From assembly GCA_036478295.1 (NCBI GenBank), contig JAZGDW010000276.1:1-22886 (forward strand): a stretch of DNA of 22,886 nucleotides. Reading direction: 5' to 3'. This DNA is from Candidatus Krumholzibacteriia bacterium (GTDB lineage: Bacteria > Krumholzibacteriota > Krumholzibacteriia > WVZY01). Each line of letters begins with the position of its first letter. The first letter of the stretch is position 1. The position numbers were made by a program. Positions 18,215 through 22,886 of this stretch are shown here, piece after piece.

Positions 18215-21200
18215 GTCTGAGCTACCTTCGCACCCGTAACAGGATTGTCTGGCAAGCGTCGTGAGGAGTGCCGGCACGCGGCCGGCGGATCTCGACGTTG
18301 GCCATGAATGATACTGGGCCGTCTGGCTTCTGGCAACAGAATTGTTGCTGCGGATGAAGTGGCGCTAGACGAAAGCGGGCGGCCGCTCGCTGCGACCGCC
18401 CGTGCACCCAAAGGGGGTTTGGATTTGAAAAACATCGCCCGCCGGGCACCGATCCCGATCCCTATCATCCCTTCCGCGATACGGCGCCCGGCAGAGTGGG
18501 CGATGGATCAGCGCTGACCCGAATGCGACTCGCCCGGCGTCGCGACGTACTCCTGCGGTGACACCGGCGTCCCAACCTGCATAAACTGGATCGATGACCT
18601 CAGGAGACCATCCATATACATGGGGTTGTGTATGCCGTGGCTGCGGTCTTCCTCCGCCAGAAGATAGTTCCACATGGCACCCGCCGAATCGGACGACGCG
18701 ATGATACGTGGATTGCTACTGCTCCCGATAGGATGACCCGCGGCGTCGATCAGGTTGGCCGCCTGCAGCTGCGCCTCCAACGTGGCCAGGAGGCCTTCGA
18801 TGTTGGTTTGCGTGAACTGATAATTGAAATTGGGCCCGATGTCGCCGTGACACCCTTCGCACGCGGCGGTGTTAAATGTCGTATCCGCCGCCTCGATATG
18901 TTTCATGTTGAAAGAGTGGCCACCCAACACCAGGTTGCTGGTCACGTCCTTGTGGCAATTGAGGCAGGCGTTGGCTTCTTGAGTGACCGGCGATAACGCC
19001 ATGCGGTGCTCAGTGATGAAGTAGTTGACGCCCGTATATTCATAACCGTTCGAGCCCATCACCATATCGCCCTGGACACTACCGTGCGGTCCCCAGTGCG
19101 AGCTCGTGACCTTGACCGTGTCGTTGGCCGTTCTCACGTAGGTTTCCACATTGCGCCGCGAATGATGGCATGATACGCAGAGATTCCCGGCACCCATGTC
19201 GAAGGTCGCCCCGTTTTCAAGCGTCGCATTCGTGGTCACCCTCAGACTGAAATCCGCGTTCGTATGCGGCGCGTGACAGGTGAAGCAGTGGATCGGCGTG
19301 GGATTGTCGACAACCCCGGGCACACTACCTCCCGTAACGCTCGCCACAAAGCCCTCGCTCGTGTGACAAACCACGCAGGACCCGGAATTACGGTCCAGGT
19401 TGTCACCGCTCGCGTGCTTGGAGCGCATCCATTGCTGATCGGCGGCCACAAGAAACGTGTTGTTGTCGCTATGGCAATCGAAACAATTCTGCGCTGTGGC
19501 GACCTGTTCGACCCGCGTAATCTCTCGGTCACACGCCCCCGTCGCCAGAACTAGCCCCAGCAACGCCACAAGCAGAAGGCCCTTGCTTAGTGCTGACATG
19601 CTGTCAAACCCCCTTCCGCTTCAGGATCATTCTCCGATCCCGAAGTCATATGCGACGTTGAACCAGACAACGTTCGCGGTGTAGAAACGGTTCAGTAGAA
19701 TAAAGTCGTCGTAGTTATAGATGTTGTACTTCAGCTCCAGGTGGTAATCGTTCTTGTACGTGTAGACAGCTTCGAAGAACAGGGTCGATTTTTCGATATC
19801 CAGGTCCCCTTCCACGTCCATGTACGTGACGCCCGCGGCGCCCTCGAGCAGCCCGCGATATGCTGTCTCGACGCGTGCCGTCACGAACTGGCTGCGCGTG
19901 TTGAACGCCCCGACGCGGTCGTCAAACCTGTCTTCCGCGTAGGAGTAATCAGCACTGACACCCGACGCCAACCCGGCCCACAGAGGAGCGTCGTATCGGA
20001 CGTAGCCACTGACGTTTTCCCCTTCGATCTCCACGCCGATGTCGTTCAGCTCCCTGTTACGAATCACGTACCGGCTGCCGACAACGAGTTTCTTCATCAA
20101 GTCGATCTCGACCTTCGCAGCGATCCTCTCCGTTTCCGCGTCTTTGAGAAGGGTCACATTCTCGTCATCGTCCCGCGAGCGGTTCGAGTACTGTAAGCTC
20201 GCGCGAACCCTGTCGGGGTATCTTATGTTGGCACCGCCCCGGTACGTGTTGTAGCGGGTGAGCGACCGGTCGTCATCGTTCAACTCGTAGCTGTAACCAC
20301 CCCAGACCGCTCCGTAGCGATGCCAGTACTTCGCGTCGATATCGTGTTGAAAATTATCCGTCCGCAGGAGGGTGGCGTCGTCATCGATCTGGCGCGCAAG
20401 AAAGCCGTACTTGAATCGAAACCGCTGCACCGGCCGCACGATCCCTGAATAGCGGAATGTCTTCAGCGTGTGGTCGACGTCACTATTGGCGAGCTCCGTC
20501 TTGCCATAGGAGGCACGGAACACGTGCGTGAGCTTGTTCGTAAAGAGATCCGGCAAGAAGACCCGTGCTGAAACGATCTTGCCGTCTCGATCCGCCGTAT
20601 TGAACAGATCGTCGTTGTAAGCGGAAAACTCGTAGGCCAGCGTAACAAATCTCGGACCGCGCTTGACCTGACCCTCGATGCGGCCCGTATTCAACGTGTA
20701 ATCGTAACCGACCCCCAGATCGCTCTGCACGCCCGCCGGAAAGCTGGTACGGTTCCCCTCCCGTGTCATGTAATTGTAGTAGCCGGACAGGAACAACCAA
20801 TCCGCCGGCGTCACGCGCGTCGTAAAACGCCAATCCTTCCTGTCGGAGCTTACGAGCCGCTGCGGATCGAACACCTGGCGGTGTTGATCGTAACTGGTTT
20901 TGAAACTGAAATAGGAGGGCACTCTGAATTCGAACTGTCCCTTGCGGTTGTCGCGGTTGAGGTCGCGGAGGTTCAGGGTAAAAAACGTCCTGGGGTATGT
21001 CCCCGGGTCGAAACTGCCGCGCAAGAGAATGCCGGTCAGATTGAATCCGTCGTAGAAATTGAACGTCTCCTGCATAGACGAAAGATCTCCCACGTCCTCG
21101 TCGACGACGACACCGCCCAGCCGGATCGTACCCTCGACCTCTCCAGCCCGCGCCGACGCCGTGCACAGTACGACGACAGCGACGACCACCAGCAGAATAC

Positions 21201-22886
21201 TCAGCGTTGTCTTCATCAGCGCATCCTCACCGACCCTCCGTGGCATCCGACGGTGAAGCACCCCTGCGGCTCCAGAGCCGGCGTCAAGAATTTGTCGTTT
21301 TGATACGAGCCGTGAATGTCGACATGACAATCGCTGCACGGCACGCCCGCCCACTGCGCGCCGTGCCGTGAATTGAACTGGTGTTTCGGCACGACGTGAC
21401 ATTGCGCGCACAGGGCAAAATTAGGGGATTCATATGTCTGGTTCAGCATCCGCGCGACATTGGAGCCATGCGCGGCATGACAGCTCAAACACCCGCCCTC
21501 CTCCGTAGAGAAATCGAGTGTCGCCTGGTGTTCAAACAGGAACGGTCCCTGGAACTGGTTGTGGCACGTGTTGCAGAGTTCCGTTGCACCCGCGTATTCG
21601 ATCTGCCGGTGGCTCTGGTCCAGCGCCATGTGGCATTCGCTGCATTTCACGATGCCATCGGCGACCGGATGGCGAAAAGACTTGCTGAAATCAGCTTTCA
21701 CTGCCGGGTGACACGACAGGCAAAGGTCGGGCTCATCATCCTTTAGGAGTTTTGCGCGTTTGTTATTGTGGACCCGGTGGCAGCCACTACAGTTGACATC
21801 GGCGTCGGCGTGGACGTTCCTTTCCAACATGTTCTGCTGGTGCGGATTGACGTGACACGACGAGCACACCAACGCACTCGTCACGACATCGGTCCGCGCG
21901 ATGTTCACCGGCTTGTTTTCGTCCGGGTCGTCCATGTGCAGTGCACCGCCGGCATGGCAGCTCGAACAGAACACCTTCACACCGGAACCCGTTTCGTAAA
22001 GCTGGTGGGCGCTGCCACGTACGGATTTGTCGTGGTCGTCATGACAATCCACACAGTCGGCGATATAGTCCTGGTCTCCAGCGCTGACCGGGGAGCCCGC
22101 AAAGAGGAGCACGAACGCAGAGAAAAAGGCGACGGAAGCCATGATCCAACCTGACCCTTCTCGTTTCATTTTTGAACCACCATGCTGGATGACGGTGCTT
22201 GTGAATTGTTTCTCAAAATCCTCTCTGAATGTCCCCATTCCGCGAGTTCACGTCAAGGCTTTTTTGTGAAATATTTAACACACTGCTTTCCCAAGTTACG
22301 CAAGCCCGGGACCCACGTCGACCTCTTTCAGCGGAACTTGATAAAAATCAACCACTTTAGGCTTGCCTTTCGCTTGCCGAAACGGGCAACGTCCTGTTAC
22401 ATTGGCTCCAGAAAGCGGAACCAGGGTTTGGGTTTTTTTGGAAAGTTTTGTGAAACTATTCACTTGTACATCCCCTCTTCACGGAGTAGAGACCCTGTTC
22501 AGGGCCTGCAAAACGCCCGGCAGACTGTCAGTTTCGTACGCTGCCGCCATGATCGCGTTAGCGATTTCAAACCCGTCGCCGGCGCTGGCGCAACAGGAGT
22601 GCCTCCCCTGCCATCGTGGACCAGACGCTACCGGATCAGACGATTCGGCCCGTCAGGGAGCCGTCGATCGCGCGACATATGCCGGCTCCGTGCACGGCGA
22701 CCTGACCTGCGTCGACTGTCACGAAGACGTCACCGAGTCGTTACACGCCGAAACGCCACCGCCGGTCGACTGTTCGGCGTGTCACGACGACATACTGGCA
22801 GAATATCAGCCAAGCATTCATGCGTCAAGCAGGCGAAATGGCAAGAAAGACCCCGCCACCTGTTCGGATTGTCACGGCAAGCACGA

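What a model noticed while it worked through the whole genome (the two positions that open the first line are those of the whole stretch)
18508..22142. Porin-cytochrome conduit with an unrecognised porin, genetically tied to a bc complex and ImcH-type quinol oxidase
g01848 (decahaem, MtrA/DmsE-like), g01847 (529-aa barrel with no family match) and g01846 (hexahaem lipoprotein) form an MtrAB-type outer-membrane electron conduit common in the order. In relatives it lies beside the Rieske-cytochrome b, 9-, 4- and 19-haem cytochromes and ImcH/NrfD genes that are on C170 here, giving a candidate path from quinol to the cell surface.
Evidence so far: g01847 model (pLDDT 82, all-beta barrel) matches MtrB first (6R2Q_B, E 1e-15, TM 0.75; calls 224, 227) though Pfam and NCBIfam give nothing. 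g01848 has 10 CxxCH and matches TIGR03508 at 163 bits, below its cut-off. Porin in 29 of 36 genomes of the order; decahaem adjacent in 12 of 12 loci, hexahaem in 9 of 12; bc/ImcH block adjacent in 4 of 5 long loci.
(Added by a program. Inside this text positions count along the whole contig: contig position 1 is position 1 of the stretch shown here. "Call 12" and the like, gene names such as g00115 and contig names such as C1 are that model's own, and its searches are not shown. The text may have been shortened before it was handed on; [...] marks where a part breaks off. The agent that wrote the report below was given it as the finding of a first reader that could run no searches.)

Follow-up and report, generated by a model that had tools for sequence, protein, structure and literature searches.

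The report
Compact MtrAB conduit with OcwA-type cap
Three neighbouring genes in an uncultured sediment bacterium encode what looks like a haem "wire" through the outer membrane, a compact relative of the Shewanella metal-respiration channel capped by a different kind of surface cytochrome, so this bacterial group can probably pass respiratory electrons to acceptors outside the cell although standard gene searches miss the channel.

Summary
Three-gene operon confirmed. The barrel misses Pfam/NCBIfam itself, but is a divergent MtrB: 26 strands, best match 6R2Q_B (Z 25.6, next 17.2), and 27 of 93 close homologues hit PF11854 (7 above cut-off). Its outer loops are very short. The "decahaem" carries an eleventh C-terminal Cx(n)CH site (103 of 104 loci). 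The hexahaem lipoprotein is not MtrC-sized; it matches OcwA haems 4-9/OmhA/NrfA and keeps the pocket histidine. Porin in 32 of 36 genomes of the order; all named carriers are uncultured (Krumholzibacteriota, Eisenbacteria, Zixibacteria, Ignavibacteria). The tie to the bc/ImcH block is real but looser than claimed: 16 of 54 full-flank loci, 12 of 26 close-clade genomes of the order, scattered over the tree, and not shown in this assembly. Best reading: outward conduit from menaquinol to extracellular acceptors (about 0.6); direction and cap location are untested. MtrAB beside Rieske/cytochrome b was described in 2013 (Zixibacteria RBG-1), and this scan noted the same module and similar clusters before on other DNA. 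New variant of a known kind.

The parts
21216..22169 (-). MtrA/DmsE-type periplasm-to-surface cytochrome, 317 aa, signal peptide, 10 CxxCH plus a C-terminal Cx4CH (probably 11 haems)
   Evidence: TIGR03508 162.5 bits, cut-off 192.2; 6R2Q_A E 2e-19
21240..21260 (-). Eleventh haem-site motif C304-x4-C309-H310 at the end that faces outward in MtrA
   Evidence: invariant in 49 of 49 aligned rows; Cx(n)CH in 62 of 63 and 41 of 41 loci, canonical CxxCH in 3 and 3; MtrA orientation from PMC7198977 passages
19627..21216 (-). Compact 26-strand outer-membrane barrel of MtrB fold, 529 aa, short outer loops, no plug domain in the model
18508..19599 (-). Hexahaem lipoprotein of OcwA/OmhA/NrfA fold (about OcwA haems 4-9 plus three-helix bundle), lipobox Cys23, pocket His172
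22549..22886 (+). Start of a divergently read multihaem gene (4 CxxCH before the contig ends); best match is an 11-haem cytochrome c/cytochrome b fusion (CbcL-like) that lies in the linked blocks of relatives; the rest is not in the assembly
22170..22548 (.). Intergenic stretch between the divergent units (promoters inferred; no consensus site found in it)
18376..18402 (-). G+C-rich hairpin after the lipoprotein gene, possible terminator; such sites are not above chance in this region (4 found, 4.1 expected)

Best explanation
The operon makes a three-part outer-membrane electron conduit. The MtrA-like cytochrome sits inside the 26-strand barrel with its N-terminal haems in the periplasm. Because the barrel lacks MtrB's long surface loops, the extra C-terminal haem reaches the outer mouth and hands electrons to the lipid-anchored OcwA-type hexahaem, which takes the place of MtrC as surface reductase. 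Electrons come from menaquinol through a shared inner-membrane hub (ImcH-type, CbcL-like c+b fusions, Rieske/cytochrome b with a 9-haem partner, NrfD/4Fe-4S), which is often but not always encoded next door. Net function: anaerobic respiration of extracellular acceptors such as Fe(III)/Mn(IV) oxides, humic quinones or partner cells. Shown: gene order, motifs, predicted folds, distribution. Inferred: complex formation, haem binding at the eleventh site, surface location of the cap, direction, acceptor.
For: Barrel model matches MtrB at Z 25.6, rmsd 3.7 over 483 residues, next chain 17.2; cytochrome matches MtrA at E 2e-19; the two are adjacent in 104 of 104 loci with room and translationally coupled here. 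Eleven conserved non-motif His (82-100% of 49 rows) fit eleven bis-His haems. Outer-side loops total 86 residues over 13 loops against about 45 A loops in MtrB (PMC7198977). The lipoprotein profile aligns with OcwA 258-497 at E 6e-14, PHH over OcwA's HHP; model matches OmhA Z 14.5 and OcwA Z 14.0; OcwA is a cell-surface terminal reductase (PMC6703420). A 14-haem cap of a relative hits OcwA directly at E 8e-16. The C170 protein meets the published ImcH description (503 aa, 3 helices, Cx3CH + 6 CxxCH), and ImcH homologues were found only in Fe(III) reducers in that survey. A menaquinone (futalosine) family and cytochrome c assembly genes are in the genome. Linkage in 16 of 54 full-flank loci is far above the roughly 0.6% expected for a 20-kb window in 3.5 Mb (my arithmetic; kin are not independent) and needs at least 9 changes on the porin tree.
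Against: No cultured carrier among 68 and 54 loci. The hub is dispensable as a neighbour and was not found with single-protein queries in 6 conduit-bearing genomes of the order, one 96% complete; one genome has both blocks apart; 0 of 6 genomes with the distant porin clade show linkage. The cap is missing in some loci (2 of 61, 4 of 36; profile hit in 23 of 36 genomes). The only secretin in this 91%-complete assembly lies in a pilMNOPQ-like operon (label from my knowledge), so a type II export route as used by MtrC is not evident. The genome also has two haem-copper oxidases, a bd-family hit and a Cyc2-like protein, which would suit inward flow; Castelle et al. favoured Fe(II) oxidation for the RBG-1 cluster. 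The second pocket His is Gly in this genome. The lipoprotein passes the PF22113 MtrC-domain cut-off over residues 26-116, although that model also passes for three unrelated C170 cytochromes.
Confidence: 0.6

Rival explanations
1. Same conduit, opposite direction: it takes electrons from Fe(II), reduced humics or partner cells (MtoAB/PioAB-like) and feeds oxidases, or the quinone pool through the bc and CbcL-like complexes.
For: Two haem-copper oxidases, nitrate-reductase-type molybdoenzymes and a Cyc2-like gene in the genome. CbcL/MtoC homologues occur in both oxidisers and reducers (PMC6295460). Oxidation was preferred for RBG-1. Some loci have no cap.
Against: 91 of 97 loci with room carry a multihaem cap; RBG-1 was called oxidising because a cap was lacking. 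The cap resembles a terminal reductase. ImcH-type partners were known only from reducers.
Confidence: 0.2
2. The lipoprotein faces the periplasm and is a periplasmic partner or NrfA-like detoxifying enzyme; the conduit proper is a two-part MtrAB with an exposed terminal haem for soluble acceptors or donors.
For: No type II secretin found in this assembly. The same hexahaem family sits beside a different, small barrel and no MtrA in Bacteroidota loci. NrfA-family fold.
Against: Position directly after the barrel gene in most loci, variable haem number (5-6, 8, 12-14, 16) as is typical of surface caps, no CxxCK, and closest solved relatives are surface proteins.
Confidence: 0.12
3. The conduit feeds a surface enzyme rather than a mineral reductase: the open haem of the cap reduces a specific soluble substrate outside the cell, as DmsEF feeds DmsAB.
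For: Cap haem 2 aligns with OcwA's five-coordinate haem 5 and keeps the pocket His (100% of 121 rows; His-His in 80%); OcwA reduces nitrite and turns over hydroxylamine weakly.
Against: OcwA has the same pocket yet acts as mineral and electrode reductase, with kcat for nitrite of 1 per minute. Seven conserved non-motif His could ligate all six haems.
Confidence: 0.08

Closest known systems
Shewanella MtrCAB (PDB 6R2Q) and MtoAB/PioAB/DmsEF
   Same: MtrA-type cytochrome gene followed by a 26-strand barrel gene; fold match Z 25.6; cytochrome E 2e-19.
   Different: Barrel 504-557 aa in the family against 649 modelled residues, 12-16% identity, short outer loops; eleventh haem site; cap is a hexahaem of OcwA type encoded after the barrel, not a decahaem MtrC.
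Mtr cluster of Zixibacteria RBG-1 (PMC3903129; passages and supplement passages)
   Same: MtrA- and MtrB-like genes clustered with multihaem cytochromes and a Rieske/cytochrome b complex in a related uncultured lineage.
   Different: Reported without a surface cytochrome and with closest homologues in Methylomirabilis; RBG-1 was not among my loci, so I cannot say whether its barrel is of this family.
OcwA of Thermincola (6I5B) and OmhA of Carboxydothermus (6QVM)
   Same: Haem core plus C-terminal three-helix bundle; His-His pocket motif aligned.
   Different: Six haems rather than 9 or 11; lipoprotein in a diderm, tied to a porin; second pocket His is Gly here.
Geobacter ImcH and CbcL; adjacent imcH-cbcL in Desulfuromonas acetexigens (PMC6295460, PMC12133095; passages)
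   Same: C170 proteins have ImcH and CbcL-type architecture and lie side by side.
   Different: 19 haems in the CbcL-like protein; the 2018 survey found no mtrAB next to imcH, whereas here they are neighbours in several lineages.
Peat EET1-4 clusters (bioRxiv 10.64898/2026.05.27.727921; passages)
   Same: Divergent porin-cytochrome clusters with MtrA-like and OcwA-like models in uncultured diderms.
   Different: Acidobacteriota and Verrucomicrobiota, 8-13 haems; not compared by sequence (supplements not seen).

Membership tests
MtrB/PioB (PF11854) | Score above the Pfam cut-off of 23 bits | tested here: not met
   No hit for this protein; 7 of 93 close homologues pass and 27 of 93 hit at E<=0.05
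MtrB/PioB (PF11854) | 26-strand barrel of MtrB fold | tested here: met
   26 strands in the model; 6R2Q_B first in Foldseek and VIA-align; an Atlas MtrB/PioB cluster at TM 0.87
MtrB/PioB (PF11854) | Gene directly after an mtrA-type gene | tested here: met
   104 of 104 loci with room
MtrB/PioB (PF11854) | Long extracellular loops covering MtrA | tested here: not met
   13 loops, 86 residues in all, in the model; MtrB loops about 45 A
MtrA/DmsE (TIGR03508) | Ten CxxCH with MtrA spacing and signal peptide | tested here: met
MtrA/DmsE (TIGR03508) | Score above 192.2 bits | tested here: not met
   162.5 bits; GSU2203 family 151.9 against 325
MtrC/OmcA | Ten haems in about 650 residues (size recalled) | tested here: not met
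   6 CxxCH in 363 aa
MtrC/OmcA | MtrC fold | tested here: inconclusive
   PF22113 passes on residues 26-116; top fold matches are OmhA, OcwA, NrfA
OcwA/OmhA | NrfA-type haem core plus C-terminal three-helix bundle | tested here: met
   Z 14.5 and 14.0, rmsd 3.6 and 3.3 over 232 and 222 residues; profile E 6e-14
OcwA/OmhA | His-His motif over an open haem | tested here: inconclusive
   His172 invariant and aligned with OcwA HHP; second His in 97 of 121 rows but Gly here; spin state not testable
OcwA/OmhA | Nine or more haems | tested here: not met
   Six here; 12-16 in some relatives
NrfA | CxxCK catalytic haem | tested here: not met
   All six motifs are CxxCH
OmcS nanowire cytochromes | OmcS fold | tested here: inconclusive
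   Six haems as in OmcS, but sequence and fold searches rank OcwA/OmhA/NrfA first
ImcH (C170 protein) | 495-519 aa, three N-terminal helices, Cx3CH then six CxxCH | tested here: met
   503 aa, helices at 16, 47, 100, CGETCH plus six CxxCH against PMC6295460
ImcH (C170 protein) | Sequence identity to Geobacter ImcH; quinol oxidase activity | not tested
   No Geobacter sequence was fetched; no PDB sequence match
Porin-cytochrome conduits | Stable complex that moves electrons across a membrane | not testable with these tools
   Needs purification and liposome assay

The most novel reading that the evidence does not exclude
This is a distinct conduit design: a nearly loop-less MtrB barrel, an eleven-haem wire whose extra haem projects through the mouth, and exchangeable heads built from the two halves of OcwA (5-6, 8, 12-14 or 16 haems), each keeping a His pocket over an open haem. 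OcwA-type reductases, so far solved only from Gram-positive cell walls, would then be the standard surface heads of an outer-membrane conduit in four uncultured sediment lineages, wired to an ImcH/CbcL/bc hub, with substrate chosen by swapping the head.
Probability: 0.35. Interest if true: 0.7.

Novelty: new variant of a known kind. Interest (0 to 1): 0.48.

Why it matters
The barrel is in 16 of 16 well-assembled genomes of this order and 30 of 128 sampled genomes of the phylum, yet escapes Pfam and NCBIfam here, so marker-based surveys would undercount extracellular electron transfer in Krumholzibacteriota, Eisenbacteria, Zixibacteria and Ignavibacteria. A profile of this family fixes that. 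Structurally it joins Shewanella-type wire and barrel, a Thermincola-type head and Geobacter-type quinol oxidases, and at about 1,150 mature residues it is a small three-part conduit that could be expressed and tested. The general layout is not new, which limits the surprise.

Tried and rejected
Complex prediction of barrel, C-terminal half of the cytochrome and lipoprotein: no verdict, score 0.01, no evidence either way. Sequencing runs: no RNA holder listed; four DNA runs laid as short contigs, none spanning the stretch or joining C197 to C170. No end overlap between C197 and C170, and the rest of the cut gene is not in the assembly; C170 ranks low in tetranucleotide likeness (5 of 140), but a same-genus genome has it at about 73% DNA identity beside the conduit. 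Sequence search of the barrel profile against the PDB: 0 hits. MtrC and OmcS were not listed in the fold searches of the lipoprotein, which does not exclude them. The 594-aa GTG-started frame for the barrel was rejected: it overlaps the cytochrome gene and the signal peptide starts at 21216. Metagenome scan gave 14 mostly short loci, not analysed further. Promoter and terminator scans were not informative. Whether RBG-1 or the vent Zixibacteria 'mtrAB' calls of PMC9769843 belong to this family could not be settled: RBG-1 did not appear and the supplement's presence cells were not readable. The ImcH paper PMC10601379 is not held; PMC7096707 was seen as a listing only. OmcB homology of the cap (recalled idea) was not tested. 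The porin tree is the quick version; the careful search did not finish.
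Full report
Setting. The window is a whole contig (C197) of a 3.5-Mb, 91%-complete assembly. The nearest named homologues are from Candidatus Krumholzibacteriia (71% for the barrel, 65% for the lipoprotein). Three minus-strand genes form a tight unit: a 317-aa cytochrome (21216-22169), a 529-aa protein whose ATG overlaps the upstream stop (19627-21216), and, 27 bases further, a 363-aa lipoprotein (18508-19599). A divergent multihaem gene starts at 22549 and is cut by the contig end.

Barrel. It has no Pfam or NCBIfam hit and the family profile finds no PDB sequence. The model from 101 homologues (pLDDT 89.4) is a signal peptide followed by 26 strands. Foldseek ranks MtrB 6R2Q_B first (E 2e-16, TM 0.72; next E 7e-8, TM 0.47); VIA-align gives Z 25.6, rmsd 3.7 over 483 residues, next 17.2. 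Of 93 close homologues scanned (93 of the 101 aligned), 27 hit PF11854 at E<=0.05 and 7 pass the cut-off. So it is a divergent MtrB rather than an unrelated porin. It is a discrete, compact family: 78 full-length members are 504-557 aa, 192 representatives in the profile search. The longer set of alternating loops totals 86 residues over 13 loops, whereas MtrB has surface loops of about 45 A that cover MtrA (PMC7198977, passages).

Cytochrome. Ten CxxCH, MtrA match E 2e-19 over residues 39-289, TIGR03508 162.5 bits, below cut-off. After the tenth motif it carries a tail ending in C-x4-C-H. In the first locus set 62 of 63 upstream cytochromes keep a Cx(n)CH there (56 Cx4, 3 canonical Cx2, 2 Cx1, 1 Cx6; four rows re-read by eye because the script mis-parsed them; the miss is a frameshifted record); in the second set 41 of 41 (35, 3, 3). 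C304, C309 and H310 are invariant in 49 rows, and eleven other histidines are conserved in 82-100% of rows, enough for eleven bis-His haems. MtrA's C terminus faces outward, so the extra site would lie at the barrel mouth. Haem binding there is inferred; a disulfide is the alternative.

Lipoprotein. Lipobox Cys23 is invariant in 121 rows, 16 residues before the first haem motif in most. A profile hits OcwA (E 2e-7), NrfA proteins and OmhA; a wider one aligns residues 56-327 with OcwA 258-497 at E 6e-14 and puts the family's GPHHGPQ over OcwA's HHPH and OmhA's GVHHPQ. The model (pLDDT 86.4) matches OcwA first in Foldseek and OmhA, OcwA, NrfA at Z 14.5, 14.0, 13.0 in the wide search. In OcwA a His-His motif lies over each five-coordinate haem (PMC6703420, passages). 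By this alignment the protein is about OcwA haems 4-9, with its haem 2 at the open position (inference); His172 is invariant, the next residue is His in 97 of 121 rows but Gly here. There is no CxxCK. Against this reading: PF22113 (MtrC domains) passes on residues 26-116, but also on three unrelated C170 cytochromes.

Distribution. The barrel profile finds 32 of 36 genomes of the order, 16 of 16 well-assembled ones, and 30 of 128 genomes of the phylum of at least 90% completeness, one of them marginal. Two scans gave 68 and 54 loci (42 of the 54 analysed after dropping 10 repeats and one fragment, one repeat already merged), all from metagenome assemblies labelled mostly Krumholzibacteriia, Eisenbacteria, Latescibacteria, Zixibacteria or Ignavibacteria. 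The cytochrome gene precedes the barrel in 104 of 104 loci with room; a multihaem gene follows in 91 of 97. The tree has two deep clades; the window falls in the Krumholzibacteria/Eisenbacteria one (quick tree, 65 rows: linked loci and full-flank unlinked loci only).

Link to the inner membrane. C170 encodes a response regulator, Rieske protein, cytochrome b, membrane-anchored 9-haem, 4-haem, a 19-haem c+b fusion, a 503-aa protein that meets the published ImcH description, NrfD and a cut 4Fe-4S protein. Rieske/cytochrome b or ImcH lies within 10 kb of the barrel in 10 of 33 and 6 of 21 full-flank loci (15 of 68 and 13 of 42 overall). In the order (these genomes overlap the locus sets), 26 genomes have the close clade: 12 show the block on the same contig within about 10 kb (7 of them one genus), 6 show neither partner with these queries, 1 has them apart, 1 probably apart, 6 are unresolved including this one; 0 of 6 distant-clade genomes are linked, one of them a single contig. 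From the other side, 4 of 80 ImcH-type loci show this barrel. The link appears in both clades and in several gene orders and needs 16 changes on the tree, at least 9 forced. In same-genus G034, fragments of the ImcH and 19-haem genes and then the 4-haem, 9-haem and cytochrome b genes lie directly upstream of the cytochrome gene, and the cut gene at the window's end best matches the 11-haem c+b fusion of linked blocks. C170 therefore probably follows C197, but no join is shown. The tie is persistent but optional, and the hub serves other conduits in other phyla.

Mechanism. Most likely menaquinol (futalosine-pathway family present) is oxidised by the ImcH-type, CbcL-like or bc complexes; multihaem extensions or the 4-haem protein pass electrons to the wire; the eleventh haem hands them to the OcwA-type cap; the cap reduces Fe(III)/Mn(IV) oxides, humic quinones or another cell. 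I put the conduit itself at about 0.9 and this outward, capped version at 0.6. For outward flow: the cap, and ImcH being reported only from Fe(III) reducers. Against: oxidases, nitrate-reductase-type enzymes and a Cyc2-like gene in the same genome, capless loci, and no type II secretin in the assembly.

What is known. Castelle et al. 2013 described MtrA, MtrB, multihaem cytochromes and Rieske/cytochrome b in one cluster in RBG-1 (passages and supplement passages). mtrAB were reported for vent Zixibacteria (PMC9769843, passages), an MtrB-like complex for Ignavibacteria (PMC7399161, passages), OmcS and Cyc2 for Krumholzibacteria (PMC7914226, passages), and OcwA-like cytochromes in porin clusters of peat bacteria (preprint, passages; supplements not seen). 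The 2018 survey found no mtrAB beside imcH. I found no paper on this barrel family, the eleventh site or the OcwA-type cap in these lineages in searches (open-licence library only); PMC11492766, PMC12133095 and PMC10654088 were read as passages. This scan noted the same three-gene module in a Zixibacteria-like genome (e1-1530315; I had reached the MtrB and OcwA readings before seeing it, and took the eleventh site as a lead which I then tested) and several MtrAB-bc-ImcH clusters elsewhere.

Verdict. Real, conserved, a new variant of the MtrAB-type conduit; the linkage claim is overstated; function untested. Interest 0.48.

Noticed in passing
window 15369-18204: A 66-nt direct repeat (94%) of part of tRNA-Phe (18156-18231) flanks a 2.8-kb stretch with a UbiE-like methyltransferase, a UbiA-like protein and a cyclase/START-like protein; both copies match one place in G034, so it looks like a small island inserted at the tRNA.
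   Followed up: partly
window 3-4747: MMPL/RND transporter, LolA-like protein, a cut barrel-like protein (weak DUF1302) and a divergent ArsR regulator.
   Followed up: no
window 6998-14307: A 309-aa protein with no Pfam hit, a Ser/Thr kinase with TPR repeats, and a 1,094-aa secreted protein recognised only by a C-terminal FlgD-Ig/sorting domain.
   Followed up: no
G000 C13:12572-14194, C123, C129, C174, C45, C38, C159: Cyc2-like cytochrome-barrel fusion, alternative complex III-like, Nap-like and Nar/Nxr-sized molybdoenzymes, two haem-copper oxidases; labels partly from my knowledge.
   Followed up: partly
L076:15951-16948 (G034): ImcH-type and 19-haem genes appear only as joined fragments; real deletion or collapsed assembly not decided.
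   Followed up: partly
L146, L156, L177, L161: The same hexahaem lipoprotein family lies in Bacteroidota loci beside a monohaem-sized lipoprotein, a roughly 310-aa barrel-like protein, split CbcL-like genes and ImcH, without MtrAB: a possible second conduit type.
   Followed up: partly
L016, L023, L025: 35- to 42-haem cytochromes within 8 kb upstream of the conduit in Eisenbacteria loci.
   Followed up: no
L167:3613-6519: A Nitrospirota cytochrome with the usual MtrA ending and a 612-aa barrel scoring 44 bits on the family profile, next to CbcL- and ImcH-like genes: a bridge to longer MtrB types.
   Followed up: no
L242:11555-13343 (G007): The response regulator of the bc/ImcH block remains beside the conduit while the block itself was not found, suggesting loss.
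   Followed up: no
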